Shown one piece after another: positions 151 through 54,246 of a stretch of 64,000 bases of DNA. The first letter of the stretch is position 1. Every line of letters starts with the position of its first letter. The stretch lies in NCBI RefSeq assembly GCF_009914755.1, contig NC_060941.1; one strand, written 5' to 3'. The position numbers and the translations under genes are program-made. Below the pieces are notes generated by a model. It was given only the letters and a program-made list of their open reading frames with translations. It did not search any database and was not told the DNA's origin. This stretch comes from the human T2T-CHM13v2.0 reference genome, Homo sapiens.

Positions 151-3100
151 TTTTGACTCCTTGGTTCAGTATATTCCTAAGATTTTTTTGTTTTTGTTTT
201 TGTTTTTTTTGCAGCTATTGTAAAAGGGGTTGAGTTCTTGATTTGGTTCTCCACTTGGTCACTGTTGGTGTATAGAAGAACTACTGATTTGTGTACAGTA
301 ATCTTGTATCTGGAAGCTTTGCTGATTCTTTTATCAGTTCTAGGAGCCTTCAGGAGGAGTCCTTAGGGTTTTTGAGGTAAACAATCATATCATCTGCAAA
401 TAGTGACCGTTTGACTTCCTCTTTACCAGTTTCGATGCCTTTCTTTCTCTTGCCATATTACTCTGGCTAGGACTTCCAGTACTATGTTGAAGAGGAGTGG
501 TGAGAGTGGGCATCCTTGTCTTGTTCCAGTTCTCAGAGGGAATGCTTTCAGCTTTTTGCCATTCAGTATTATGTCGGCTGTGGGTTTGTCGTAGATGGCT
601 TTTATTACATTAAGGTATGTCCCTTGTATGCCTATTTTGCTGAGGGTTTTAATCATAAAGAGATGCTGGATTTGTCAAATGCTTTTTCTGCATGGTCATG
701 TTATTTTTGCTTTTAATCTGTTTATGTGGTGTATCACATTTATTGACTTGCATATGTTAAACTATCCCTGCATCCCTGGTACGAAACCCACTTGATCATG
801 GTGGATTATCTTTTTGATATGTCGTTGGATTCGGTTAGCTAGTATTTTGTTAGGGATTTTAGCATCTACATTGATCAAGGATATCAGTCCGTAGTTTTCT
901 TTTTTGGTTATGTCCTTTCTTGGTTTTGGTATTAGAGTGATGCTGGCTTCATAGAATGAATTAGGGAGGGTTCCTTCTTTCTCTGTCTTGTGGAATAGCG
1001 TCAAAAGGGTTGGTACCAATTCTTCTTTGAATGTCTAGTAGAATTCTGCTGTGAATCATCTGGTCCTGGACTTTTTTTGTTGGTAATTTTTAATTACCAT
1101 TTCAATCTTGCTGCTTGTTATTGGTCTGTTCAGGATACCTAATTCCTCCTGATTTAAGCTAGGAGAGTTGTATTTTTCCAGGAATGTATCCATGTCTTCT
1201 AGGTTTTCTGATTTATGTGCGCAAGGGTGTTCATAGTAGCCCTGAATGATCTTTTGTATTTCAGTGATGTCAGTTGTAATATCTCCTGTTTTGTTTCTTA
1301 GTGGGGTTATTTGGATTTTCTCTCTTCTTTTCTTGGTTAATCTCACCAGTGGTCTATCAATTTTATTTATCTTTTTAAAGAACCAGCTTTTTGTTTCATT
1401 TATCTTTTGTATTTTTTTTTTTCAATTTCATTTAGTTCTGGTCTGATCTTTGTTATTTCCTTTCTTCTGCTGGGTTTGGGTTTGGTTTGTTCTTGCTTCT
1501 CTAGTTCCTTGAGGTGTGACCTTAGAGTGTCAGTTTGTGCTCTTTCAGTCTTTTTGATGTAGGCTATGAACTTTCCTCTTAGCACTGCCTTTGCTGTATC
1601 CCAGAGGTTTTGATAGGTTGTGTCATTATGGTCATTCAGTTCAAAGAATTTTAAAATTTCCATCTTGATTTCATTTTTGACCCAATGCTCATTCAGGAGC
1701 AGGTTATTCAAATTTTCTTGTATTTGCATGGTTTTGAAGGTCCCTTTTGGAGTTGATTTCCAGTTTTATTCCATTGTGGCCAGAGAGAGTGCTTGATATA
1801 ATTTCAATTTTCTTAAATTTATTGAGGCTCGCTTTATGGCCTATCATATGGTCTATCTTGGAGAAAATTCCATGAGCTGTGAATAGAATGTGTCTTCTGC
1901 AGTTATTGGATGAAATGTTCTGCATACATCTGTTAAGTCCATTTGTTCCAAGGTATAGTTTAAGTCCATTGTTTCTTTGTTGACTTTCTATCTTGATGAA
2001 CTGTCTAGTGCTGTCAGTGGAGTATTGAAGTCCCCCACTATTATTGTGTTGCTCTCCACCTCATTTCTTAGGTCTATTAGTAATTGTTTTGTAAATTTGG
2101 GAGCTCCAGTGTTAGGCACATATATGTTTAGAATTGTGATATTTTCCTGTTGGATAAGGCCTTTAGCATTGTATAATGTCCTTCTTTGTCTCTTTTAACT
2201 GCTGTTGCTTTAAAGTTTGCTTGTCTGATGTAAGGATAGCTACCCCTGCTCACTTTTGGTGTCCATTTGCATGAAATGCCTTTTTCCACCCCTTTACTTT
2301 AAGTTTATTTGAGTCCTTATGTGCTAGGTGAGTCTTCTGAAGGCAGCAGATGATTGGTTGGTGAGTTCTTACCCATTCTGCAGTTCTGTATCTTTTAAGT
2401 GGAGCATTTAGGCCTTTGACATTCAGTGTTAGTATTGAAATGTGAGGTATGGTTACATTCATCATGTTCTTTGTTGTCTGAGTACTTTGGTTTTTTGTTT
2501 TTTGTTTTTGCTTTTTAACTTGTATTTTTGTTTTATAGGTCCTGTGTAATTTGTGCTTAAAAATGTTCTGTTTTGATGTGTTTCCAGGATTTGTTTCAAG
2601 ATTTAGAGCTCCTTTTAGCAGTTTTTGTAGTGGTGGTTTGGTAATGATGAATTCTCTTAGCATTCATTTGTCTGAATAAGACTGTATCTTTCCTTCATAT
2701 ATGATGCTTAGTTTCACTGGATATAAAATTCTTGGCTGATAATTGTTTTGTTTGAAGAGGCTGAAGATAGGGCCCTAATCCCTTCTACCTTGTAGGGTTT
2801 CTACTGAGAAATCTGCTGTTAATCAGATAGGTTTTCGTTTACAGGTTACCTGGTGCTTCTGTCTCACAGCTCTTACGAGTCTTTCCTTCGTCTTAACTTT
2901 GGATAACCTGATGACAATGTGCCTAGGCGAAGATTGTTTTGCTATGAATTTCCCAGGTGTTCTTTGTGCTTCTTGTGTTTGGATATCTAGGTCTCTAGCA
3001 TCTTGGATATCAAGGCCAGGGAAGTTTTCCTCGATTATTCCCCCAAATATGTTTTCCAGGCTTTTAGAATTCTCTTCTTCCTCAGGTACACCAACTATTC

Positions 3101-3839: not shown

Positions 3840-4145
3840 TTTTTTTTTTTTTTTTTTTTTTTAGACAGATTCTTGCTCTGTCGCTCAGGCTGGAGTGCAG
3901 TGGCACATTCTCGGCTCACTGCAACCTCCGCCTTGAAGGTGCAAGCGATTCTTCTGCCTCAGCCTCCTGAGTAGCTGGGATTACAGGCTCCTGCCACCAC
4001 CCCTGGCTAATTTTTGTATTTTCAGTAGAGACGGGGTTTCACCATGTTGGCCTGGCTGGTTTGGAACTCCTGACCTTAAGTGATCTGCCCATCTCAGCCT
4101 CCCAAAGTGCTGAGATTACAGGCATGAGCCACCATGTCTGGCCTG
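3840..4145 (-). mobile_element. Alu (AluS-like) with target-site duplication
   Basis: Poly(T) plus Alu consensus; CTGAGTTTCCTCTTTG occurs on both sides. Confidence 0.9.
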
Positions 4146-4590: not shown

Positions 4591-5097
4591 AGTATCTTGA
4601 ATTTTTTTTTCATTGTTGTACTGCCGAATCCTATAAGTAGTATTTTACTTATACTTTAACACATGTATGAGTAATATTGGTCTATAATTTCCCTCCCTCA
4701 CCTCCTCAGTATTATATTTATTCTGTAGTTTTGTAGGCAATTAGGAGCTACTGAAGGGTTTTATGCATGGGAATAATCAATTTTTTTAAAGAGGAATACA
4801 TCCCTTGACATACTGTGGAAAATAAATAGAAGATGAGACTGGTGGCATAGGTTTTTAAAGATGCCATTGTAATAATAAAGGTATTAGTTAATGCAGTAGT
4901 AAATTCAAGAAGTATTTGGAAATAAAATGAGCAGAAATTGATAATCATATGCATGCAAGAGGTAAGGGAGAAGAAATAGCCCAGCCTTACTCTCAAGCTT
5001 TTAACTTCTGTTATAATTTGACTATTAGCTTCAGCTATATTATTTAATTCTGAAACAATAATTCTTTCTTTTAAGTAAATTATGCTTTGCCTTACAG

Positions 5098-5381
5098 AAA
5101 GTGGCAAGGTTAGCATTCAAGAATTTATGACTAAATTATCCGATATATTGACAATTCCTAAAGCTGCAGGTAAGTTTTATTTAATATGTACTTATTGCCC
5201 AGATCTAGAAAGGCAAGCAGTGGTTTACATGTTAAAAACAATACAGGATTCGATAGTTAAAGCACAGGTAAGTAAGAAGCAATACAATATGAATATAAAA
5301 CAACACAAGATTAGTTTACATAACTTCTGTTTGAATTCTAAGGCAAATATTGCTAAGCTTAACCCAAACTCAAAATTTTAG
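5098..5381 (+). CDS. EFCAB13: Terminal coding exon of EF-hand calcium-binding domain protein 13 (rest of gene is upstream, outside window)
   Basis: Acceptor TTTGCCTTACAG|AAAGTGG at 5097/5098 (phase 1); open frame ESGKVSIQEFMTKL...NPNSKF* ending TAG 5379-5381. GKVSIQEF fits the second half of an EF-hand loop. Gene name from recall of the protein C-terminus and the neighbouring MRPL45 pseudogene. Confidence 0.85.
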
Positions 5382-5569
5382 GTAGTCTTACTTGATAGTG
5401 CTAGAAAATTACTAGATTATATATTATTCAGTATGCATATTTGACTTCTGAAATTATTAGAAAATAATTTTTAAAACTTTTGACAAATCCAGTAGAATTT
5501 TTATCACTATCTGTTATGTTCTCATGTATCTTCAGCGACTCTCTTGATCACACTTTTTAAACATTCATG

Positions 5570-5850
5570 CTTTTTGAGGTATAATGTACATATGGCAAAA
5601 TTCACTCTTTTTAGGTATACAGTTCTTTGGATTCTTAAAAATAATGTAATGTAACCCTTACTATACACAACATATAGACTATATTATCCCCCAGAAGTCT
5701 CTTATGCCCTTTTGGTAATCCATTTCTTCCTCTACCCTGAGCCCCTGGCAACTACTGATTCATTCTTTGTCCCTCTAGTTTTGCCTTTTGTGGAATATCA
5801 TGTAAATGATTAAATATGAAGTGGTTTGAGTTTGGCAGTCATTGCATGCA
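5570..5850 (-). mobile_element. Old L1M 3'-end fragment within the EFCAB13 3' UTR region
   Basis: TTGAGGTATAATGTACAT...CCCTGGCAACTACTGAT...TTTTGCCTTTT is typical antisense L1M 3' end. Confidence 0.7.
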
Positions 5851-5951
5851 TATACCTTGAATTTACTTTGTTTATACTCTCATTTATACTACCAACCCTC
5901 CCTAGAAAAAATGGATTCTGATTGGTTCTGGTTGCAGTATTACAAATTCCA

Positions 5952-5957
5952 AATAAA
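5952..5957 (+). terminator. Candidate polyadenylation signal for EFCAB13
   Basis: AATAAA ~570 nt after the stop codon, followed by GT-rich sequence; cleavage site not determinable from sequence. Confidence 0.45.
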
Positions 5958-6020
5958 GCTTTATTTGAGGACCCCCAAAGTTGAGGTACTGATCCCTTTG
6001 GCTGTTTGTTTCCCACTAAG

Positions 6021-6021
<1 letters not shown>

Positions 6022-6070
<49 letters not shown>
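6022..6070. repeat. (TG)n microsatellite
   Basis: Direct observation. Confidence 0.97.
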
Positions 6071-6071
<1 letters not shown>

Positions 6072-6390
6072 ACCAACATTTTGTTGAATCAACAATGTAC
6101 CATTAGTAAAGCTGCTGTGCAAAATTATCCCTCAGATCTGTTCTAAACTTACAGTTTAACTGATTTTATTGTCCTCACCTAAGGTTATACAATTCATTTT
6201 TTGGAAGAAAATACTAGGACATTAAATCAAGATGGTTACTTTTGCTATTTTGCTGAAGTTCATATTTAAATATAAATGAAGAAGTTAATCTACACATTAG
6301 AAGTGTTTTAAAAAATGTTTAAATTGATACATAATTGTACTTTCATTTATACATTGTATAATAATCAAATCAGTGTAAGTAGCAACCCAT

Positions 6391-6825
6391 TGTGAACCCC
6401 AAATATCAGAAACAGGATTCAATTAATTTAGAAAGCTTATTTTTGCCAAGGTTAAGGGTGTGCCCATGACACAGACTTAGGAGGTCCTGACACATGTGCC
6501 TAAGGTGGTTGGGGCACAGCTTGGTTTTATACATTTTAGGGAGACATGAAATATCAATCAATACATGTAAGATGTACATTGGCCAGAAGGGCAGGGGAAA
6601 GACAATTTGAAGCGGGGAATTTCCTTATGGGCAAATTGTGAGGGAGTTAATGTAGCTTCTTCTTTTATTTTATTTTATTTTATTTTATTTTATTTTATTT
6701 TTTATCTCTGTTGCTATCTCCTTTAGGAATAGAATGGGAGGTAGGTTTGCCTGACACAGTTCCCAGCTTGACTTTTCCCTTTGGCTTAGTGATTTTGGGA
6801 TACCGAGATTTATTTTCCTTTCACA
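6391..6825 (-). mobile_element. ERV1 solo LTR (MER4-like) containing a (TTTTA)n tract
   Basis: TG...CA termini, 4-bp TSD CCAT (6387-6390, 6826-6829), MER4-like internal motifs (TTTGCCAAGGTTAAGG, TTATACATTTTAGGGAGACATGA). Confidence 0.8.
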
Positions 6826-7129
6826 CCATCAGCTCAAACATTTATCATTTCTTTGTAGTGAGAACATTCAATACATTATTAACTATAGTCACCCTTTAAT
6901 TTTTAAATAGACAAATACAAATTGTATGTACTGTATATTGCATGATTCAAAATATGTACATACATTGTGGAATGGCTAAATTGAATTAATTAACGTGTTT
7001 TACCTCACATACCTATTTTTGTGATGAGAACACAAAATCTTTTCTCTTAGCAATTTTCAAAAATATTATACATTGTTATTAACTGTAGTCACCATGTTAT
7101 ACAACAGAGCTCTTAACCTTATTGATTTT

Positions 7130-8844
7130 CTAATATTTTATTAAAGATTTTTGAGAGTATGTTTATGAGGGATATTGGTCTATAGTTTTCTTTTAGTGTC
7201 TTTTCCAGATTTTTTTGTTAGGGTTATGCTGACCTCATAAAATGAGTTGGGAAGTCTTCCCTCCCTTTTTTATTTCTGGTTGAGTTTGTGCATTAGTTGG
7301 TTCTAATGCTGCTAATAAAGAAATATCTGAGACTGGGTAAGTTATAAAAGAAAGAGGTTTAACTGACTCACAGTTCCATATGGCTGGGGAGACCTCACAA
7401 TCATGGTGGAAGGCGAATGAGGAGCAAATTCACCTCTTACATGGCGGCAGGCAAGAGGGCTTGTGCAGGGGAACTCCCATTTATAAAAACCATTAAATCT
7501 CGTGAGACTTATTCACTTATGGGGACACTGCCCCCATGATTCGATTATGTCCACTGGCCCCACCCTTGACACTTGAGGATTATTACAATTCAAGGTGAGA
7601 TTTGGGTGGGGACACAGCCAAACCATATCAGTTTATGATTATGATTAGGATTATTGTTTTCATTAAATGTTTGGTAGAATTCACCATCTATTCCTGAAGA
7701 TTTAAAATATTGAGCTCTATTTATTCAATGGATATATAGCTCTTTAGAGCCTCCCTCTTCTAAATCTTTCTGTAGTTGTCACTATATCTTTCTGTAAGTA
7801 TCATAAAGAAGAAATATACTTTCTATAAGTGGAACTGTGTCTTGTCAAAGTTTATTTTATGTAATTTGTCAGGTTTATTGTCATGAAATTGTTCATAATA
7901 TCCCCTTATTATCCTTTTAATGTCTATAGTGTGATGTCTTATTTTTCATTCCTGATGTTTGTAATTTCTATTTTCTCTTTTTTGTTTGTAACCAGTCTTG
8001 CTAGGGAGTTATTAAATTTATTAATAATTTTACACAAATGGTGATTTTGTTAATTTTTGTTAACTTTTCTCTTTTGTTTTTCTTTTTCATTGGTTTATAT
8101 TTTTATTGTTACTATCATTTGGTCTTTGTTTACTTTGGGCTTCATTTACCCTTCTTTGCTAGCTTGTTAAGATAGAAGCTTAGATAACTGATTTTTATCC
8201 TTTTCTAACATTAAAACTGCAAATTTTCCCCTAATATGTCTTTCATTGCATCTCACAAACGTTGTTATGTTGTGCTTTTTATCATTTACTAAAATATTTT
8301 CTAATTTACCTAATGATTTTTTCTTTGAAGTGTAGGTTATTTAGAAATGTAGTCTTTAATTTCCAAATATTGGGACATTTTCTAGATATCTTAATTATTA
8401 TTGATTTCTAATTTATTTATTTCTTTTAGGGAGAGGGTCTTGCTTGTTGCTCAGGCTGGAGTGCAGGTGGCATGATCATGGTTCACTGCAGCCTCCAACT
8501 CTTGGGCTCAAGCAACCTCTTGCCTCAGCCTTGCAAGTAACTGGGACTACAGGCACACACCATTACACCTGGCTAATTTTAAACATTTTTTCTGTAGAGA
8601 TGGGGTCTCATTTTGTGTTCCAGGCTGGTCTTGAGCTCCTGGGCTCAAGCATTTCTCCTGCCTTGGCCTCCCCAAGTGTTGGGATTATAGTTGTGAGCCA
8701 CTGTGCCAAGCCTGATTTCTAATTTAATACATTTGGCCAGAGAATATATTTTGCATGATTTAAATTCTTAAATTAATTAAGATTTATTTATAGCCCTGGT
8801 TATGGTCTATCTAAGTGAATGTTCCATGTGTACCTGAAAGAATG
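7130..8844 (-). mobile_element. Old L1M ORF2 fragment, interrupted by a THE1 LTR and an AluJ, ending abruptly at ~8844
   Basis: Antisense L1 motifs (ATATTGGTCTATAGTTTTCTTT, CCTCATAAAATGAGTTGGGAAGT, TATGGTCTATCT...GAATGTTCCATGTG). Confidence 0.8.
7289..7630 (-). mobile_element. THE1 (ERVL-MaLR) solo LTR
   Basis: Ends in GGGGACACAGCCAAACCATATCA (reverse of THE1 5' end); contains GACTCACAGTTCCA..GGCTGGGGAG. Confidence 0.9.
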
Positions 8845-8947
8845 GCTTGAACTCGCGGGGAGGAGGTTGCAGTGAGCCAAGATTGCACCACTGCACTCCA
8901 GCCTGGGCAACAGAGTGAGACTCCATCTCAAAACAAAAGAAAAAAAT
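8839..8947 (+). mobile_element. Alu right-arm fragment fused directly to the L1M
   Basis: AGAATGGCTTGAAC...GAGACTCCATCTC-A-tail; no TSD seen and the L1M does not resume afterwards. Confidence 0.85.
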
Positions 8948-11284
8948 TTTTTGGTTAAGAGTTTAGATAAAGGAAAAAACTCCATTTAAATGTTTCTGTG
9001 AAGAAAACCATAATGGATTACATGGCACAACAACAGTTTCAAAAAATTAAAACCAATTTGTAAACATTAATCATCACGGTTACTTATATGCCCTTAAAAA
9101 TGATCTATATGCTCCTAGTGTCACATAAGACACGTTAATCTAGGAGTCTACTTCACTCAGACTTTTTGCAACTAACATGCATTCTTTGTTTCTTCATCAC
9201 TGTGGGGAAGAGGTGGTACATACAAAAGGTTCTTGACATAACCCTATAAAAAGATGATCACATGGTGTATTATCTGGGAATTTAAATGGTCACAATTCCA
9301 GGATACGTCAATGCTATCAACTTTAAAAAATAAATAAATTTGACCTATAATGGGGGGGCCAGCCGGGGGTAGGGGAGAAAGAGGCAAACTGTGTATCCTG
9401 GAACTTTGTAACTGGAAAAAAATTAGCAGCAGCAGCAGCCTGATCAAAACTGCAACTTCTTGCCCACCTGGACAACCCAGCTCTCTTTTCTAGAAATTAG
9501 CATCTATGCTCAATTTCTAATAATGGAATGGTGCCTAGGTACTCATGTTTGTCTAGGTGAAAACAGCTTCTAAATCCAGGTGCTTACATCAGAATTGCTC
9601 TCCTGGAAATTTAGGACTGAGACATTGAGTCACTTACCTGTAGGGTAACCTGTAGAATCAGAGATTTCTCAAATTTGACCTGTCTTATTTTGATACCATG
9701 TTTCCCAGCAATGTAACCTCCCCTTAAGTATCAGTTTTTGTAAAATCTCCTAATCAATTTCTTATCAGATTATATTATATAAATACCTATCATCTAGAGT
9801 ACTCCAGAAGCCAAATGAACATTAAAAAAAAAATACTGAGATAGGGCCAGGCATAGTGGCTGAGTGTAATCCCAGCATTTTGGGAGGCTGAGTTGGAAGG
9901 ATAACTTGAGGCCAGGAGTTCATGACCAGCCTGGGCTATATAGCAAGACGCTGTCTCTCTACCAATTCTATAAATATTAAAAAAAAAAAAAACTGGGTGT
10001 GGTGGTGGCACTTGTACTCCTAGCTACTTGAGAGGCTGAGGTGGGAGGACGGATTGATTGAGGCCAGGAGTTTGAGGCTATCGTGAACCATAATTGTCCA
10101 CTGCAGTCCACCCTGGGGTGACGGACTAATAGACTCTGTCTCTAAATAAATAAATATTACAAAAAGAAAAGCACTGAGATAGGTAATGTTGGTAAGTGAG
10201 ATTATAGATTTTAATCTCATGAACAATTTTAAGTTAGCTACTATACACTCCCATTTCCAAAAGTTTAGATTGGAATGTTTGCTGCCTTTGGTAGCTAAGA
10301 GAAAAGAAATAACAATGAGGGATATTATAGTGCCATTCTTCCACAGTCCTTATCAAATAAATAGGCCTTTGAGTCTTGGAATTGTTGAGAGTAAGAAAGC
10401 AAATAATATATAAAGTTGACAAGCACAAAAGACACAAAGAGGCCAGGCATGGTGGCTCAAGCTTGTAATTCCAACACTTTGGGAGGCCAGGGCAGGGGGG
10501 TTGTCTGAATCCAGGAGTTCAAGACCAGCCTAGGCAACATAATGAGATCCCATCTCTACAAAAAATAAAAACAAAAGTAGCCAGACATGATGGTGCATGC
10601 CTGTAGTCCCAGCTACTCAGGAGGCTGAGGTGGGAGGATCACTTGAGGCTGGGAGGTCGAAGCTACAGTGAGCTGTAATTGCACCACTGCACTCCAGCCT
10701 GGGGAACAGTAAGACCATGTTGGAAAAAAAGAAGAGGGGAGGGGAAGGGGAGGAGAGACCACAAGAAACAAATATAATGAATAATAGTTTACTATTCCTG
10801 AGAAAAAGAGAATACCAAATGTAAGAGAATGTGTAACTAGGGTTGGGGAGAGCGGGCTGGAGAGAGACAGCACACAAAGACAACAGAGAGAAGTCAAATA
10901 GGAAATTTCAAAATGAGAATCAGCTGATGTATAAAAAAGAGCAAAATAATTTTTTTACCGATAGAACTGCAAGATTTAGCTTTCCAAAATGATTCAATTC
11001 TCCAGAAAAGAAAAATTAATTTAAGCACTCATCTAAGTAACTAGTATAAAGTGCCAAGCAAAAATAAACATTTATTAGATATAGACAAATGCAAATATAT
11101 TCAATGCTTTCGTACAAATGTGAATATCTGGGGGCCTTATTATCATCTTGTTAATATATGTCAGTGAACAATTTGTAGACACAAGACTTGTTTTACAAAC
11201 TGGGTAATATGTTCCATGAACGTAAGCCAGGAATTTAAAACTTAGTGTCTATCTCTTCATTCTAAGAAATGTTTCAGCTAACTC

Positions 11285-11286
<2 letters not shown>

Positions 11287-11336
<50 letters not shown>
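11287..11336. repeat. (TG)n microsatellite
   Basis: Direct observation. Confidence 0.97.
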
Positions 11337-11339
<3 letters not shown>

Positions 11340-12739
11340 ATGTTTTCTATCTCATGTGGTGGTGATGAGCCTAGTACTTATATTCTTGAAATGAAAATCC
11401 CATTCTGATATTTCTTCCTCCCTCTTCTCTGTCACATTAAACTGATCACCAGGCTGGTCAGCTGAAGCTCTTACATATTACCGAATGTCTCTGTCCCGTT
11501 GTTCCTACTACTTCAGATCCTCATTCCAGTGTCTGGGACACTGTCAGAGTCTAAATAGATTCTAGGTCTCTTGTCTCGTCTATCTTCCATCTCCCAATCC
11601 TCCTTCCCCCAATCCATTAGAATGACAGACCTAAGCATATCCTTTCTGAACATAAAAACCCTTCAATAACTTTAGGGATAAACTTTAGGCTCCTTAACAT
11701 TATGCATGAGGTGCTTGAACATCTGACCCTTGACAGTCCCTCTCAGCATTCTAGCACATTCAGGGTCCTAACAATACCACCCTTCTCCCTGCCACCATCC
11801 CAAATCCCTCCCCCTGCTCACCACTCTCCTTGTTATTTCCCACTTCAAAGCTTTTGCTCCTTCAATCTGTAAAATTAACAGCCACTCATGTGTTCCTTCC
11901 TTTCTCCTCTCTTCACAGCCAGCACCTGGAGGTTTCTTACTCTTAGGAAAAACTGCGACCTTTTCTAAGATACCTCCTCCCTCTTTCCTCAGTCCTGTTA
12001 AAGGTTAGGTGGACATTCACTGTACCTCGAAAATCCTTGCACATATTATTGTTTAACAATCACCGATTGATGCACGTCTATCCACCATACAGACCTGGTA
12101 CATATAAGAGGACATGCCAGAAATGAGGACGAGATCAATGGGCAGATAGATGAAATGTTTAGCTTCCTTATTTACCTGAAACCTCATTTTTGGAAGTCCT
12201 AAAACCCATAAAGAATATTTGGTGCTTTCAAAAATATCTTTTACTTGGCCAGGTGCAGTGGCTTACACCTGTAATCCCAGCATTTTGGGATACTAAGGCC
12301 GCTGGATCACTTGAGGTCAGGAGTTCGAGCCCAGCCTGGCCAACATAGCAAAACCCCATCTCTACTAAAAATACAAAAATTAGCCGGGCATGGTGGTCCC
12401 GCCTATAATCCCAGCTACTCAGGAGGCTGAGGCATGACGAGAATCGCTTAGACCTGGGAGGCAGAGAGGGTGCACTGGGCCAAGATCACACCACTGCACT
12501 CCAACCTGAGTGATGGAGTGAGAATCTGCCTTTAAAAAAAAAAAAATTAGCTGGGTGTAGTAGTGGATGCCTGTAATCCCAGCTACTCGGGGGCTGAGGC
12601 AGGAGAATCGCTTGAACCTGGGAGGCGGAGGTTGCAGTAAGCCAAGATCTCAGCACCGCACTCCAGCCTGGGCGACAGAACGAGACTCCACCTCAAAAAA
12701 AAAAAAAAAAAAAAAGTCCTGGCCAGGCGCAGTGGCTCA

Positions 12740-12987
<248 letters not shown>

Positions 12988-13768
12988 TTAATTGCTATCC
13001 ACTACTATTACTTTTGGAAAAAAATAAGGGGGAGACAGGTTAGCAATTTCTAAGCCTTCCATTAGGTTTAATCTTACAATTAGATGACATCATGTTTTTT
13101 GCTGTTTTTGTTTGTTTCTTTGGCCTATGATCATCCTTCCTATACTTATAAATAATCTTTACTTCAGGGCTATCCAATAAAGAAGGACTATTAAAAAAGC
13201 GTATATATATATATATATACATATATACACATATACATATGATATACTCATCATCTGCTAACTACTCTCTATGCAAATTGTAGCTTTCTAAAATGAATGC
13301 TTCCTTGACTCTGAAGAATACAAGCTTCTACCCCAAAAAAGTTCACAAGTCCCTTTGTTGCCACAATCTTCACATTTCTGAAAACTTATTAAAAGGTAAT
13401 TTTAACAAAACATGTCAGTGAAATGATGAGTTAACACGTTACAGAAGAAAATATTAGCAGTCAAAAATATAAAAATAGGATACAATGATTTAAATTGTAC
13501 AAAAACTGGCCACTGGCCAGGGATGCTGGCTCACGACTGTAATCCCGGCACTTTGAGAGGCTGAGATAGGAGGATTCCTTGAGACCAAGAGTTAGAGACC
13601 ACCCTGGGCAACATAGGGAGATCTTTTTCTATAAAACATAAATAGACCAGGTGCACTGGCTCACACCTGTAATCCCAGAACTTTGGGAGGCAGCCAAGGC
13701 GGGCAGATCACTTGAGGCCAGGAGTTCAAGCCCAGCCTGATCAATGTGGCGAAAACCTGTCTCTACTA

Positions 13769-14200
<432 letters not shown>

Positions 14201-16157
14201 AGTATTTTTAAAACTGGCCATTACATATTTAACGACATGTAGAAAATTTAACAGGTCAATACAGTAAATTCTTTGCTATTTAGATATACAATAAAGATAT
14301 TCTAGTAAATTTTTTCCCAGTACTCACAAAATTTCATTTTTTTCTAAATTCCACAATGTTCTAGCCACATAGGAGTATTTCTTATTCTCTGAACATGCCT
14401 ACCTGCCACCTCTTCCCTTTGCACCTGCTACCCTAGGTTACGTCACTTTCTCTGTCTGGAATTTTTAGTTGATCATTTTCTGCAAAGGTCAAATGCCTAA
14501 TTATTCTGCAAAGCCCTAGAAGCTCTTTGTATGCCTTACTCAATTCCTGAGACAAGAATAATTTCTCATTATTTGCCCATAATACTCCATTCAGCCTTAT
14601 TATTATGTAACATATATTTTAATTTTCATACATTTATTGACTTGTCTTCCTACTTGAGGAAACCCCCTATTTTATTTATCCTTGAATTCCTGGTGTCTAA
14701 CACAACACTTGATACAAAGTAGGTCCATAGTAAATGCCCAGTAAATAAATGTTCCCAAACTTATCCTTTATTACCTACCATCCATTAAGGACTGATGTCT
14801 TCAAGCCCATTTTCCAATCATTCCTGTCATTTCAGAATTGCATGCCCCATTATTAGGCATAAAGAATTTATATGAACAAAACCTTATTAACTTTTTTTAT
14901 TTTTTTGAAACAGGGTTTCACTCTGTTACCTGGGCTGGAGTACAGTCACACAATCATAGCTCACTGCAGCCTTGACCTCCCAGGCTCAAGAGATCCTCCC
15001 ACCTCAGCCTCTCGAGTAGTTGGGAGGGACTACAGGCGAGCACCACCATGCCCGGCTAATTGTTTTTCTTTTTTGCAGAGGTGGGTTCTCAGAATGTTGC
15101 CCAGGCTGGTCTGGTACTCCTGGGCTCAAGCAATCCTCTCACTTCAACCTCCCAAAGTACTGAAATTATAGGTGTGAACCACCACACCCGGTCCATTAAC
15201 TTTCTTTCTTTTTTGTTTTGTGTTTCTTTGCTTGCTGTTCTTTTCTGAGACAGGGTCTTGCTCTGTTGCCCAGGTGGGGGTGCAGGGCACAGTCACGGTT
15301 CACTGCAGCCTTGACCTCTGGGCTCAAGGGACCCTCCCACCGCAGCCTCTTGAGTAGTTGGGACTACAGACACATGTGCCTCCCCACACCTGGCTAAATT
15401 TATTCTTTTTTGTAGAGACAGGGTCTTGCTTGTTGTCCAGACTGGATTCAAACTTCTGGGCTCAAGCGATACTCCTGCCTGGGCGTCCCAAAGTGCTAGG
15501 ACTATAGGCATGAGCCACTGAGCCTATTCTAACCCTAAGTAGAACAAAACAAATCATCAACAACAAAAATCCGACAAACATAAAGCAATCACATATAAGA
15601 AAAGCTGTAAAAAGGAAAGAAATAGAAAGAAGAAAAAAATAAACTTGATAAACAGATACACCACGCTTCTGGAAGGAAGGATTCAATATTGTAAAAATAT
15701 ATTCATCCCTAAAACAGTATTTCACTGTAACTCTAATATAGTCTAAATTGTGTGCTTATTAGTCCTAATGTTCATCTAGAAAAATAGATGACAATATTTG
15801 TCTTACCATATACTAAAATGTATATAAAGCTATAATAATTTAAAATAGTGTGGCACCAGGATAAAAATAGACACACCAATGGAACACATAAAAAGTCCAG
15901 AAACATACTCAAGTATTCAAGAATTTAGTAATGATTCAAACAAGATTTCAAATCACAATGGAAAACATAGATTATTCAGCAATAGTGTTGAAAAAGTTGA
16001 CTAACCAGGTGGGAGGGGAAAGTTGGGCACGTATCTTACCATATTCTAAAATTAATTCTAGGCTAATAAAATATTTATATCTAAATAATTCCTTCTTTGG
16101 TCTACCCTCGCTCCTTTTCTGCTTCAACACTTTAGTCTTAAAGCCATGAGATGGGGC

Positions 16158-16256
16158 TAGGCATGGTGGCTCATGCCTGTAATCCTAGCATAGGCATGGT
16201 GGCTCATGCCTGTAATCCTAGCATAGGCATGGTGGCTCATGCCTGTAATCCTAGCA
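16158..16256 (+). repeat. Perfect 33-bp x3 tandem repeat of an Alu 5' end
   Basis: TAGGCATGGTGGCTCATGCCTGTAATCCTAGCA at 16158, 16191 and 16224. Confidence 0.97.
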
Positions 16257-16779
16257 TTTTGGGAGGCCAGAGCAGGCAGTTCACTTGACTCAGGAGTTCA
16301 AGACCAGCCTGGGCAACATGATGAAATCTCAACTCTACAAATAATACAGAAAACTTAGCTGGGTGGGATGGGTGCACCTTGTAGTCCCATCTACTTAGAG
16401 GGCTAAAGTGGAAGGACTGCTTGAGCCCAAGAGGTCAAGGCTGTAGTGAGCCAAAACTGCACCACTGCACTCCAGCCTGGGTGACAAAATGAGACCCAAA
16501 AGCCATGAGGTGAGTTCAAGCATAGTAATTATCCATGAGGGGGTCATGGATATTGGAGGGGGCAGTACAATACTAGTATAAGAGCCTGAATAAGGCTGGC
16601 TTCCCTAAGGGGTTGGGGATAGGGGTGAGGACAATCTCAGAGCAAGGTGAAAAGATCAACAAAAGTTGAAGCAGTGAACTGAGGCTGAATATCAAATCCC
16701 AAGAGGGGTGAAAAGGACTGGCATGCAGGAAAGTAGCAGCAACCCTGAACTGGGTTGGAACAGCATCTGCCTTAGGTGG

Positions 16780-19360
<2,581 letters not shown>

Positions 19361-20215
19361 AGGTTTTTAAAAATGAACTTCCAAAGCACTAAAAAAAAAG
19401 TGCATTAATATAAAGATTTTCTTTGCACGGCATCAAAGGCAGAAACAATAAAGAGCATTTGCATAAATTACCTCAAAAATGTAAACTTGTGCATTAGAAA
19501 AAATTAACCTGCTAGAATCCCAATAACAAAAACTATGAAGACATAATAAAATTAAACACCAAACGTTAAACTATGGGAAAAAACACACACAGCAAATATA
19601 CGAGACAAAAGAATATGATCTCTAATATAAAACACTTTGTAAAAAAAATTATAATATTAAAATAAACAGATATGGAAGGTCAATTAACATACATGAATAA
19701 TCTTCAAAAAAAAACTTTAAAATAACCAACCTTACCAGTACTCAAAGAAACTCATTCAAACATTTTAATATTTTTTTTACTAGAAAGAATAGCAAAGATT
19801 TTTTTAAGGGTAACACAGTGTACCTAACAAAATATAGAGTTATGAGCAATCTCACATACAGCTAATACAGTGTAAGTTCTAGAGGACAATTTCACACAAT
19901 GTATTTCTTGAAGCTTCCAAAATGTTCACACACTTTTACACAGATGCTAGCAGTGTATACTAAATGCCAGACACCAAACTAGGCCCTTCAACCACAAAGG
20001 GTTGCTTAATTAAATTTGCAGTTTGTTGAATCTCATGATATTCTGTATTACAGACCAAGTATCTATTAAAAATACAGCAGAAACACAATTTATTGACACA
20101 CAAAAGATGCTGTGTAATTTTCAAAAGCAAACAAAAAATATAAGCAAAACGATTCAACTTTTTCGTAAGTATATACTATAAGCAAAAATACACAGAAAAA
20201 ACCCCGTCTCTACTA

Positions 20216-20464
<249 letters not shown>

Positions 20465-20956
20465 TTAAAATCTTAAAGCTGGCTGCAATTTCTTCCACAG
20501 TTGGAATGTGTACCTTCAATTAAGTGGTAAAACTGTATTTAAAGGCACATTGGGTAATGGTGAAACCTAAAATGCAGAGGAGAATAAAACAATAACATAC
20601 TAAATGAAGAAAAACATACAGGAAAAAAGCAAACATTAAGTTTTTTTTTTAAGGCCAACAATAAAAACCGTATCTTGGGGTACAAATAACTTGAGGGGGG
20701 GGACAAGTAACATTCTAATATAGGACTGTTTTTTAAAAAAGAATGTATGATACATTGTAATGAATATTATGCAAAATAATAATTAATTCAAATTTACCAG
20801 ACTCTTGATACCTGAAAGAGCAAAAGAGGTCAGTAATTCATAAAGGGCCAATCTGTAAGGATTAAAATATCCTGTAAATCGTAGAATACTAAATACCTAG
20901 GTTACTATGAAAGGTAACACAGTTTTGCTTGCTTTGTACTCCTGTGACCTTAGTAA

Positions 20957-21325
<369 letters not shown>

Positions 21326-21340
21326 TAATATCCACTGTAC

Positions 21341-21450
21341 CTTATTACAATGATCATGTGGAACAGACTGTAAAACAATTGGTTCCATTGTGGAAACACT
21401 GGCAAATTGTACCTCCGGAATATACAGAGCACACATCTCATGGGCCCAAC
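21341..21450 (-). pseudogene. Orphan 110-nt MLLT10 (AF10)-like exon encoding part of the PZP domain (Zn-knuckle end and linker)
   Basis: Reverse strand: TTTATTTTTAG|GTTGGGCCCAT...TGTAATAAG|GTACAG; phase 1 to 0; translates GWAHEMCALYIPEVQFASVSTMEPIVLQSVPHDHCNK versus recalled AF10 GWAHVVCALYIPEVQFANVSTMEPIVLQSVPHDRYNK. VSTM/QSVP are AF10-type rather than AF17 (VLTM/QYVP). Neighbouring MLLT10 exons not found. Confidence 0.88.
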
Positions 21451-21948
21451 CTAAAAATAAATAAATAAATGTCATCTTTTCAGTTTTATCAAAAGCAAAT
21501 TAACATCATTAACTTCCTTAACAGATCCCTACAATGTCTATTGAAACAAATGCACAACAAGGACATTAACAAATTCTCATTGCTGTCTTACTTCCATTGC
21601 TTGAGAATACTCAAACCACTACTAAAAAAAAGCATTCTTAATCATTTCCCCAGTTATGATGTACACAAGCATAAATAAAGGGAAACATTTATAAATTCAG
21701 TTCTTGGCACTAACACTTCTTATACAGGCAGACTAAATATTCAGATCAACACTACTAATGACAACCACTATAAAAGGAGGTTTTTAAAGTTTAATACTTA
21801 TGATAAAATTTAATTATCTTAATCTTTTTAAATGTCAACATGAAATTATTTTTATCTTGGTGTCAATATTTTTAATATTAGTAATAATCATTTCACTATT
21901 TTAATTGGACAAGTTTTAAATTTGGTATTAAATATATATATTTTATGA

Positions 21949-22053
<105 letters not shown>

Positions 22054-22088
22054 TGACTGAAGGTATTAAGGAGCTGATGTGATAGTGA

Positions 22089-22522
<434 letters not shown>

Positions 22523-22670
22523 TGACAAACTCAGAGGCCCCACAGTACAGGGATGTACATTCACAAACAACCAAGAGAAAAAGAGAACAAGTAAACCCCT
22601 CTCCTCCTTTCAGATGCAACACTGAATGGCAAACCAGGGGTGAGAATACACTAAAAGTACATAGACCCTC

Positions 22671-23010
<340 letters not shown>

Positions 23011-23449
23011 TCAAACTCTGAAATTTGATGAAGGTAATCCGAAATTACAACCCCCAAGGCACGAAGCAGATGCAAATATACATCCTCTCTAAAAGAAAAT
23101 AGTATCATTTTGGCTACAAATTATTTCTACCTTTTTTTTTTTTTTTTTTTTTTTGAGACAAAGCCTTGGTCTATGGCCCAGGCTGGACTGCACTGGCGTG
23201 ATCTCGGCTCACTGCAACTTCCTCCTTCCAGTTCAAGCAATTCTCCTGCCTCAGCCTCCCAAGTAGCTGGGATTACAGGTGCCCACCACCACACCTGGCT
23301 AATTTTTGTATTTTTAGTAGATATGAGGTTTCACTGTGTAGACCAGGCTGGTCTCGAACTCCTGACCTCAAGTGATCCACCAGTCTCAGCCTCCCAAAGT
23401 GGTGGGAATACAGACATGCGTCACCACACCCAGCCTAAAATTTCTTAAT

Positions 23450-28340
<4,891 letters not shown>

Positions 28341-28350
28341 TGGCTGGGCA

Positions 28351-28723
<373 letters not shown>

Positions 28724-53477: not shown

Positions 53478-54246
53478 TAGCTGGGATTACAGGCATGTGC
53501 CACCACGCCCGGCTAATTTTGCATTTTTAGTAGAGACGAGGTTTCTCCACGTTGGTCAGGCTGGTTTTCGATTCCTGACCTCAGGTGATCTGCCCACCTC
53601 AGCCTCCCAAAGTGCTGGGATTACAGACGTGAGCCACCGCACCCAGCCAATAAAATCTGTATGTAGAGAAATAAGTCATGGCCATGTGAAGAATTCATAC
53701 TTACTCAATATACTTATGCACATAAACCTATACATGATTTACATATAGTGACAGCGGCTACTCTGGGCACACTGGCCTATGGGGTAGCCCTGCTCTGCAA
53801 TGAACAGTACAAATTTAAAAAAAAAGATAGATACAGTCAGAGCTAGACTGGCTGGGTGTGACGGGTCACACCTGTAATCCCAGAATTTTGGGAGGCTGAG
53901 GTGGGAGGACTGCTTGAGCCCAGGAGTTCGAGACCAGCCTGGGCAACATAGTGATACCCCGTCTCTACAAAAATTTCTTTTAAAAATTAGCCAGGTCGGC
54001 TGGGCGCAGTGGCTTACGCCTGTAATCCCAGCAATTCAGGAGGCCGAGGTGGGTGGATCACGAGGTCAAGAGACAGAGACCATCTTGGCCAACATGGTGA
54101 AACCCCGTCTTTACTAAAAATACAAAAATTAGCTGGGCATGGTGGCATGCGTCTGTAGTCCAGCTACTCGGGAGGCTGAGGCAGGAGAATCTCTTGAACC
54201 CGGGAGGCAGAGGTTGCGGTGAGTTAAGAGTGAAACTCCGTCTCAA

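What the first reader, a model, noticed from the sequence alone, without database searches (positions are those of the whole stretch)
5098..5957. EFCAB13 last exon looks like a former internal exon read through its donor (gene-fission scar)
Seen: 72 nt after the acceptor is a consensus donor CAG|GTAAGT (5169/5170), defining a symmetric phase 1-1 exon carrying the EF-hand-like part. The remaining ~70 codons are AT-rich and intron-like, include a second CAG|GTAAGT (5267/5268), and the 3' UTR runs into an antisense L1M remnant. Recalled, unverified here: in mouse the EFCAB13- and EFCAB3-like sequences form one long gene. Inference: downstream exons were removed by rearrangement and the C-terminus was recruited from intron.
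Basis: partly seen in the sequence, partly recalled or inferred. Interest (0 to 1): 0.75.

Follow-up and report, generated by a model that had tools for sequence, protein, structure and literature searches.

The report
EFCAB13 last exon: read-through internal exon
The last exon of human EFCAB13 is an internal exon of a much longer ancestral gene that now runs on past its splice site into the old intron; this is a tidy but ordinary consequence of a gene split that has already been published.

Summary
There is an acceptor at 5097/5098, a 72-nt phase 1-1 exon, perfect CAG|GTAAGT donors at 5169/5170 and 5267/5268, a 69-codon read-through tail ending in TAG at 5379-5381, and AATAAA at 5952.

Predicted long orthologues (orangutan, macaque, baboon, squirrel monkey, marmoset and non-primates) all leave this exon exactly at 5169/5170 (..PKA[A/T/P]|E-DKFYN..). 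So the exon was internal, and human EFCAB13 ends in a composite terminal exon.

The fission itself is already published (Lilue et al. 2018, Efcab3-like/Gm11639). I reproduced it. Orangutan residues 1-979 map to EFCAB13 and residues 2726-3786 map 14.9 Mb away at EFCAB3. About 1,750 residues in between have no human counterpart. Both edges abut 97-98% segmental duplications.

One part of the reading needs correcting. The tail was probably not recruited after the break. The same open frame, with the same stop in six of the seven, is present in seven monkey short-form models from species that keep the long gene. The frame is unlikely to be open by chance (48 of 20,000 shuffles). The first 68 intron bases are conserved in frame with tenrec.

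Whether monkeys actually use this end cannot be tested here. Low novelty.

The parts
5080..5097 (+). Polypyrimidine tract and AG acceptor of the last EFCAB13 exon
   Evidence: Sequence read (..ttatgctttgccttacag|). The exon start at 5098 agrees with the hub's RefSeq table.
5098..5169 (+). Ancestral internal exon: 72 nt, phase 1 at both ends, encoding (E)SGKVSIQEFMTKLSDILTIPKAA(G/E)
   Evidence: Of the 48 stored relatives whose alignment reaches the exon end, 31 continue into the next-exon motif right after this exon. tblastn of the long forms against the window matches only 5097-5180.
5167..5175 (+). Consensus donor CAG|GTAAGT with junction at 5169/5170. Long orthologues use it; human EFCAB13 reads through it.
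   Evidence: exact 9-mer; orangutan, macaque, baboon, squirrel monkey and marmoset long forms read KA[A/T/P]-E-DKFYN, which is G|AA, where human reads G|GT = Gly.
5170..5378 (+). Read-through coding tail: 69 codons counted from the split Gly codon, KFYLICTY..NSKF
   Evidence: Stop-free in 48 of 20,000 dinucleotide-preserving shuffles. The same frame is open in 7 of 7 monkey short forms.
5170..5237 (+). First 68 intron bases, conserved in frame with the tenrec model (15 of 23 residues, with one 2-residue indel)
   Evidence: No similarity is detectable beyond 5237.
5265..5273 (+). Second perfect CAG|GTAAGT (junction 5267/5268, phase 0). No sign that it is used.
   Evidence: No stored protein leaves the frame at this point. 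The idea that it is a tandem copy of donor 1 was rejected.
5379..5381 (+). TAG stop codon of the read-through frame
5382..5979 (+). 3' UTR of the composite terminal exon
   Evidence: The exon end at 5979 comes from the hub's RefSeq table. AATAAA lies at 5952-5957, 22 nt upstream of it.
5547..5836 (.). Old dispersed repeat inside the 3' UTR; family and orientation not determined
   Evidence: 33 of 39 non-self genome matches fall here, at 67-88% identity.
5835..5990 (.). Second dispersed repeat, which carries the AATAAA poly(A) signal
   Evidence: 6 of 39 non-self matches, at 72-80% identity. AATAAA at 5952.
5952..5957 (+). Canonical poly(A) signal AATAAA. An ATTAAA at 5809 is the only other hexamer between the donor and the transcript end.
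5980..8838 (+). Probable remainder of the ancestral intron: single-copy apart from dispersed repeats, up to the duplication edge
   Evidence: The duplicated block begins exactly at 8839 in both paralogous copies. That this is ancestral intron is an inference.
8839..28449 (+). Segmental duplication: 96-97% copy of C17:38848637-38868309 and 89-93% copy on C10 at 21.6 Mb. It is the candidate proximal edge of the rearrangement.

Best explanation
Window 5098-5979 is a composite terminal exon.

Its first 72 nt are an internal, symmetric (phase 1-1) exon of the ancestral long Efcab3-like gene. In species that keep that gene, the exon is spliced at 5169/5170 to a next exon encoding DKFYNNNIHKND...

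In human, that next exon and about 1,750 further residues' worth of exons are missing. No acceptor is left, so the perfect donor stays unspliced. Translation then runs 69 codons into the old intron, to the TAG at 5379. The transcript is cleaved about 22 nt after an AATAAA at 5952 that lies inside an old repeat.

Shown here: the exon anatomy, donor use in orthologues, loss of the downstream exons, the distal half lying 14.9 Mb away in the same orientation, and segmental duplications at both edges.

Inferred: the break lies at or after 8838/8839, and lack of an acceptor is what forces read-through.

The fission itself is the published hominine EFCAB13/EFCAB3 split.

The tail frame is older than the break, because it is intact in Old and New World monkeys. 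So the break most likely left a pre-existing intronic stop and poly(A) end as the only possible end, rather than creating a new C-terminus.
For: Anatomy.

Donor use:
- The long forms of Pongo (P0010), Macaca, Papio, Saimiri and Callithrix all read ..TIPKA[A/T/P]E|DKFYN...
- One search found 56 stored proteins matching the exon region. In 8 the alignment stopped before the exon end, and I dropped them.
- Of the remaining 48, 31 continue into the next-exon motif, 10 read through, and 7 do something else.
- Many of the 31 are isoforms from the same few species.

Loss of the downstream exons:
- tblastn of six long forms against the window hits only 5097-5180; the other hits are Alu-like matches.
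- Saimiri residues 9-986 map to C17:48197843-48303180. Residues 987-2029 give only one paralogous 56% match.
- Orangutan residues 980-2760 give 3 matches, none of orthologous grade.
- Orangutan residues 2726-3786 give 25 colinear + strand matches of at least 80% identity at C17:63173565-63286252.

Duplications at the edges: window 8839-28449 (96-97% identity), and C17:63160001-63168389 (98% copy of C17:61081756-61090175).

Published fission: passages of bioRxiv 10.1101/235838 and of PMC8662591.

Age of the tail: 7 of 7 monkey short forms carry it. Tail identity is 92.8-97.1%, no lower than the upstream exons.
Against: - All orthologue evidence comes from predicted protein models, not from transcripts or genomic alignments. 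No primate or mouse DNA was available.
- The genome searches used a stricter first look that can miss matches under about 60 bits. Loss of every intermediate exon is therefore well supported but not proven.
- The breakpoint at 8838/8839 is inferred only from a duplication edge.
- The hub's RefSeq table lists human EFCAB13 as a transcribed pseudogene (NR_189742.1), so translation of the tail is not established.
Confidence: 0.9

Rival explanations
1. An old alternative end. A short EFCAB13-type isoform, ending by intronic polyadenylation in this same intron, was already made in the simian (perhaps placental) ancestor. Its 69-codon tail was kept open by selection. The hominine break only removed the long isoform. 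This refines the best explanation rather than contradicting it.
For: - The tail frame is open in 7 of 7 monkey short forms, with the same stop in 6. The marmoset has a 5-residue in-frame gap and one extra residue.
- Only 48 of 20,000 shuffles are stop-free over 68 codons, and the median distance to the first stop is 5 codons.
- The tail is no less conserved than the upstream exons. For marmoset it is 93.8% against 86.0% (Fisher p = 0.088).
- Intron bases 5170-5237 are conserved in frame with tenrec.
- Three other stored models end at or just past this exon: P0038 (10-residue tail, closest to primates), P0040 (closest to a rodent, ends 1-2 residues on) and P0073 (distant, ends 3 residues on).
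Against: - Short models in other species may be projections of the human protein that simply stop at the first in-frame stop. No transcript or 3'-end data were available.
- 3.4% of 619 random starts in this window also give 68 or more open codons.
- The upstream exons themselves change fast (about 7% of residues differ from Old World monkeys), so similar conservation in the tail is weak evidence of constraint.
- Tail lengths differ between lineages.
- Conservation over 68 intron bases is also what splicing control elements next to alternative exons look like (recalled).
Confidence: 0.45
2. One reading: the tail is plain intron that became a C-terminus only after the hominine rearrangement removed the downstream exons.
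For: - The long orthologues splice at 5169/5170.
- The full tail was found only in simian models: 8 clusters, and one search added nothing beyond partial matches in tenrec and P0038.
- GC content matches the flanking intron.
- Pfam finds nothing credible in the tail (LemA E = 0.025, below its cutoff).
Against: - The frame and stop exist in monkeys that keep the long gene, so the coding potential predates the break.
- An open frame of this length is improbable by chance in sequence this AT-rich.
Confidence: 0.3
3. A remnant with no protein function. Human EFCAB13 is a transcribed pseudogene, and the tail frame is an untranslated leftover.
For: - The hub's RefSeq table classes EFCAB13 as a transcribed pseudogene (NR_189742.1).
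- The protein changes fast: 92.5-93.6% identity to Old World monkeys and 86.0% to marmoset.
Against: - A 925-973-residue frame is intact in human and in seven monkeys.
- The paper reports broad expression, highest in testis and thyroid (passage).
- This rival concerns function, not the anatomy of the exon.
Confidence: 0.3

Closest known systems
Efcab3-like (Gm11639) and its hominine split into EFCAB13 and EFCAB3 (Lilue et al. 2018; bioRxiv 10.1101/235838, passages read)
   Same: This is the same locus and the same event: one long EF-hand repeat gene, broken in the human, chimpanzee and gorilla ancestor by a rearrangement of about 15 Mb that also deleted internal repeats. My mapping agrees. The halves lie 14.9 Mb apart, and about 1,750 orangutan residues are missing.
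   Different: The passages I read give no exon-level account of how EFCAB13 ends. They do not mention that the donor is read through, that the tail frame is present in monkeys, or that duplications flank both edges. Their Supplementary Figure 13 may show more, but preprint supplements were closed.
Composite terminal exons made by intronic polyadenylation (general class, recalled from the alternative polyadenylation literature)
   Same: An internal exon whose donor is left unspliced, followed by an in-frame stop and a poly(A) signal in the intron.
   Different: In the usual case it competes with splicing. Here no downstream acceptor is left, so read-through is obligatory in human.
Suppression of intronic poly(A) sites by U1 snRNP bound at strong donors ('telescripting', recalled)
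   Same: Two perfect U1-complementary 9-mers lie 680-780 nt upstream of the poly(A) signal that is used. They could damp nearer cryptic sites or lower use of the end.
   Different: Nothing about this was tested here. It is only a mechanistic lead.

Membership tests
Composite terminal exon (intronic polyadenylation) | The 5' part is a genuine internal exon, spliced at both ends in other isoforms or orthologues | tested here: met
   Of 48 stored relatives that reach the exon end, 31 continue into the next exon. The junction is at 5169/5170.
Composite terminal exon (intronic polyadenylation) | The donor is read through, with an in-frame stop in the former intron | tested here: met
   G|GT read-through, then TAG at 5379-5381.
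Composite terminal exon (intronic polyadenylation) | A poly(A) signal and cleavage site inside the former intron | tested here: met
   AATAAA at 5952-5957. The transcript end at 5979 comes from the hub's RefSeq table.
Composite terminal exon (intronic polyadenylation) | Transcript evidence for this 3' end, in human and in species that have the long gene | not testable with these tools
   No RNA data were available here. Only the hub's BestRefSeq row supports the human end.
Gene fission by rearrangement (EFCAB13 / EFCAB3) | A single outgroup gene covers both human halves colinearly | tested here: met
   Orangutan P0010 reaches this exon at residues 955-983, and Saimiri P0027 residues 9-986 map to EFCAB13. 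Orangutan residues 2726-3786 map to C17:63173565-63286252 on the same strand.
Gene fission by rearrangement (EFCAB13 / EFCAB3) | The break lies in an intron, and the exons in between are lost | tested here: met
   There is no next exon in the remaining 58 kb of the window. Orangutan residues 980-2760 have no orthologous-grade match in the genome (stricter first look).
Gene fission by rearrangement (EFCAB13 / EFCAB3) | Timing in the human, chimpanzee and gorilla ancestor | not tested
   Taken from the paper's passages. The 97-98% identity of the flanking duplications fits only roughly.
C-terminus newly recruited from intron after the break | The tail frame is absent or closed in species that keep the long gene | tested here: not met
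   The frame is open in 7 of 7 monkey short-form models.
EF-hand | A calcium-binding loop with acidic ligands at positions 1, 3, 5 and 12 (recalled consensus) | tested here: inconclusive
   The loop reads P-E-H-E-S-G-K-V-S-I-Q-E, so only the G, I/V and E positions fit. Pfam's best EF-hand stretches lie elsewhere, and the exon-plus-tail peptide hits no EF-hand model.

The most novel reading that the evidence does not exclude
The hominine break did not invent the EFCAB13 end. A short isoform already terminated in this intron in the simian, and possibly the placental, ancestor, with a tail kept open by selection. On this reading the long gene broke along an existing isoform boundary, and the surviving 5' half was functional from the first day.
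Probability: 0.4. Interest if true: 0.45.

Novelty: already known. Interest (0 to 1): 0.27.

Why it matters
This gives an exon-level picture of a published human-lineage gene split. It shows which exon became the end, why its perfect donor is idle, and where the unique intron remnants stop against segmental duplications.

The one point that could matter more is timing. If the short isoform existed before the break, the split would be an example of a rearrangement fixing an existing isoform rather than making a truncated novelty. That bears on whether human EFCAB13 should be treated as a gene or as a pseudogene.

Tried and rejected
- **Donor 2 as a tandem copy of the exon end plus donor 1.** The local alignment covers only TAAAGC..CAGGTAAGT. 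With the 9-mer held fixed, 248 of 2,000 shuffles reach its score. Rejected.
- **'KFY' in both the read-through (G-KFY-LIC) and the next exon (ED-KFY-NNN).** I treated this as coincidence and did not test it further, because no orthologous DNA was available.
- **Paralogues of the tail in the human genome.** Only the self match and one chance hit (E = 1.05) turned up.
- **Pfam on the exon plus tail.** LemA (E = 0.025) and SLBP (E = 0.14) are both far below their cutoffs.
- **Shared duplications between the window and the EFCAB3 region.** Only dispersed repeats were found. The longest is window 197-3000 against C17:63216656-63219484, at 83%.
- **Naming the unnamed short models.** The protein atlas gave no usable taxa. 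Similarity to named proteins places P0040 nearest Peromyscus (54%) and P0038 nearest the primates (62-64%).
Left open.
- **Literature.** Searches for 'EFCAB13'+'EFCAB3', 'EFCAB13', and 'Efcab3-like'/'Gm11639' returned no paper whose listing or read passages describe the terminal exon. Only the listings and passages of four papers were read.

Full report
**What is in the sequence**

One search shows a good acceptor (..ttatgctttgccttacag|AAAGTGGC) at 5097/5098. Seventy-two bases later there is a perfect CAG|GTAAGT, with the junction at 5169/5170. A second perfect copy has its junction at 5267/5268.

The 9-mer occurs three times on both strands of the 64-kb window, against 0.61 expected. Three of 100 shuffles reach three matches.

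In the frame set by the upstream exon, the sequence reads (E)SGKVSIQEFMTKLSDILTIPKAAG, then KFYLICTYCPDLERQAVVYMLKTIQDSIVKAQ, then VSKKQYNMNIKQHKISLHNFCLNSKANIAKLNPNSKF, and then TAG at 5379-5381.

Between the donor and the annotated transcript end at 5979 (hub table) there are only two poly(A) hexamers: ATTAAA at 5809 and AATAAA at 5952.

Two descriptive points are weaker.
- The tail is no more AT-rich than the exon. GC is 0.297 in the tail, 0.333 in the exon and 0.306 in the upstream intron.
- The 3' UTR repeat could not be named. In one search, 33 of the 39 non-self genome matches fall in 5547-5836. Six fall in a second repeat at 5835-5990, which carries the AATAAA.

**Was the exon internal, and which donor was used?**

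A word-indexed protein search with the last 166 residues of human EFCAB13, restricted to longer proteins, returned 22 proteins. They include long forms from:
- orangutan (3,786 residues)
- Macaca thibetana (up to 4,007 residues)
- baboon
- rhesus and crab-eating macaque
- squirrel monkey
- marmoset

All of them read ..SDILTIPKA[A/T/P]-E-DKFYNN.IHKND... So the split codon is G|AA (Glu), where human read-through gives G|GT (Gly). The only GT that fits is at 5170-5171.

I then looked across everything stored, including the 150 best of 233 hits from an exhaustive representative search. Fifty-six proteins match the exon region. I dropped 8 whose alignment stops before the exon end. Of the remaining 48:
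- 31 continue into the next-exon motif
- 10 read through
- 7 do something else: one horse isoform skips the next exon, two end within 1-3 residues, and four are distant relatives

Many of the 31 are isoforms from the same few species. Even so, they span primates, rodents, a bear and distant vertebrate-grade relatives. The exon is therefore an old internal phase 1-1 exon, and 5169/5170 is its donor. No stored protein leaves the frame at 5267/5268.

**The fission is real, and it is already published**

Passages of Lilue et al. (bioRxiv 10.1101/235838) describe the following:
- a 188-exon, 5,874-residue mouse gene, Efcab3-like (Gm11639)
- full-length versions in orangutan, rhesus, bushbaby and squirrel monkey
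- a break in the common ancestor of human, chimpanzee and gorilla, caused by an intrachromosomal rearrangement of about 15 Mb that also deleted internal EF-hand repeats

A later paper repeats this account (PMC8662591, passages). I read no supplements. Those of the preprint were closed, and its Supplementary Figure 13 may show more detail than I could see.

I reproduced the picture on the human assembly.
- Squirrel monkey residues 9-986 map exon by exon to C17:48197843-48303180. Residues 987-2029 give only one 56% paralogous hit.
- tblastn of six long forms against the window hits only 5097-5180, apart from Alu-like matches.
- Orangutan residues 2726-3786 give 25 colinear + strand matches of at least 80% identity at C17:63173565-63286252. 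That is 14.9 Mb from this exon.
- Orangutan residues 980-2760 give three matches genome-wide, none of orthologous grade.

Searches ran with a stricter first look that can miss matches under about 60 bits. Loss of every intermediate exon is therefore well supported but not proven.

**Edges of the rearrangement**

Window 8839-28449 is a 96-97% copy of C17:38848637-38868309 and an 89-93% copy of a block on chromosome 10. Both comparisons start at exactly 8839.

On the distal side, C17:63160001-63168389 is a 98% copy of C17:61081756-61090175. It ends 5.2 kb before the first retained distal exon.

By inference, the surviving pieces of the broken intron are window 5170-8838 and C17:63168390-63173564. 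The two regions share no duplicated sequence with each other, only dispersed repeats.

The first search, using the 93 residues of the exon plus tail, found the full tail in eight clusters. One is human. The other seven are short forms of 967-973 residues from:
- Semnopithecus
- Rhinopithecus
- Mandrillus
- two Macaca species
- Theropithecus
- Callithrix

At least the macaques and the marmoset also have long-form models. So the 69-codon frame is older than the hominine break. Its stop is the same in six of the seven; the marmoset has a 5-residue in-frame gap and one extra residue.

Three further points fit this.
- The frame is unlikely to be open by chance. Only 48 of 20,000 dinucleotide-preserving shuffles are stop-free over 68 codons, and the median distance to the first stop is 5 codons. 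The other two frames are full of stops. A looser control is less striking: 3.4% of 619 random starts in this window also give 68 or more open codons.
- The tail is no less conserved than the upstream exons. Against Old World monkeys it is 92.8-97.1% identical, compared with 92.5-93.6% upstream. Against marmoset it is 93.8%, compared with 86.0% (Fisher p = 0.088).
- The first 68 intron bases are conserved in frame with a Tenrec ecaudatus model: 15 of 23 residues match, with one 2-residue indel. Nothing is detectable beyond 5237.

Three other stored models end at or just past this exon:
- P0038 has a 10-residue tail and is closest to the primates.
- P0040 is closest to Peromyscus and ends 1-2 residues on.
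- P0073 is distant and ends 3 residues on.

**What this does and does not show**

It shows that the coding potential of the tail predates the break, and that the start of the intron is constrained. It does not show that monkeys make the short isoform.

All of the orthologue evidence is from gene models. A model projected from the human protein would read through and stop at the first stop codon. The upstream exons themselves change fast, so similar conservation in the tail is weak evidence of selection on a peptide. Sixty-eight conserved intron bases are also what splicing control next to an alternative exon looks like (recalled).

The hub's RefSeq table lists human EFCAB13 as a transcribed pseudogene.

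**Mechanism**

With the next acceptor gone, the perfect donor cannot be spliced. The transcript runs on to the first usable poly(A) signal, and translation stops at the first in-frame stop. This is a composite terminal exon of the ordinary kind.

The two U1-complementary 9-mers may influence which poly(A) site is used. That is recalled biology and was not tested here.

**Verdict**

The core interpretation (an internal exon read through its donor, a scar of the fission) is supported. The event itself is already in print. The claim that the tail was recruited after the break is probably wrong in its timing.

The open question is whether a short isoform already ended here before the break. It is modestly interesting, and primate genome alignments and 3'-end data could settle it.

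Noticed in passing
window 8839-28449: A 19.6-kb segmental duplication. It is a 96-97% copy of C17:38848637-38868309 and an 89-93% copy of C10:21608107-21621965 (minus strand there). It overlaps the 3' exons of MRPL45P2. Both copies share the same left edge at 8839.
   Followed up: partly
C17:63160001-63168389 (locus L007:1-8389): A 98% copy of C17:61081756-61090175. It ends 5.2 kb upstream of the first retained distal exon of the old long gene, which makes it the candidate distal edge of the rearrangement.
   Followed up: partly
C17:63173565-63286252 (loci L008-L019): Twenty-five colinear matches to orangutan long-form residues 2726-3786. That is about 1,060 residues' worth of exons in and upstream of the EFCAB3 locus, which I recall is more than the annotated human EFCAB3 protein holds.
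   Followed up: no
window 6022-6069: A (TG)n microsatellite of about 24 units, starting about 43 nt after the EFCAB13 transcript end.
   Followed up: no
window 9632-9640 (- strand): The third perfect CAGGTAAGT of the window. It lies inside the segmental duplication.
   Followed up: no
window 5170-5180 compared with the next exon of the long forms: The read-through begins G-KFY and the true next exon begins ED-KFY, so protein alignments overrun the junction by three residues. This is probably chance.
   Followed up: partly
many window sites, e.g. 53873-53968, 10464-10559, 4022-4120: Residues 483-514 of the marmoset and squirrel monkey models match dozens of dispersed repeat copies in the window. 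Those models probably contain an Alu-derived exon.
   Followed up: no
window 197-3000: A 2.8-kb stretch in the intron before the last exon is 83% identical to C17:63216656-63219484 in the EFCAB3 locus, in the same orientation. It is most likely a long dispersed repeat rather than intragenic homology.
   Followed up: no
protein P0002 compared with P0003-P0009 (upstream of the window): The human 925-residue record lacks 48 residues that are present in the 973-residue monkey forms. A paper reports genotype-dependent skipping of EFCAB13 exons 9 and 10 (PMC9670805, passages). Whether this is the same event was not checked.
   Followed up: no
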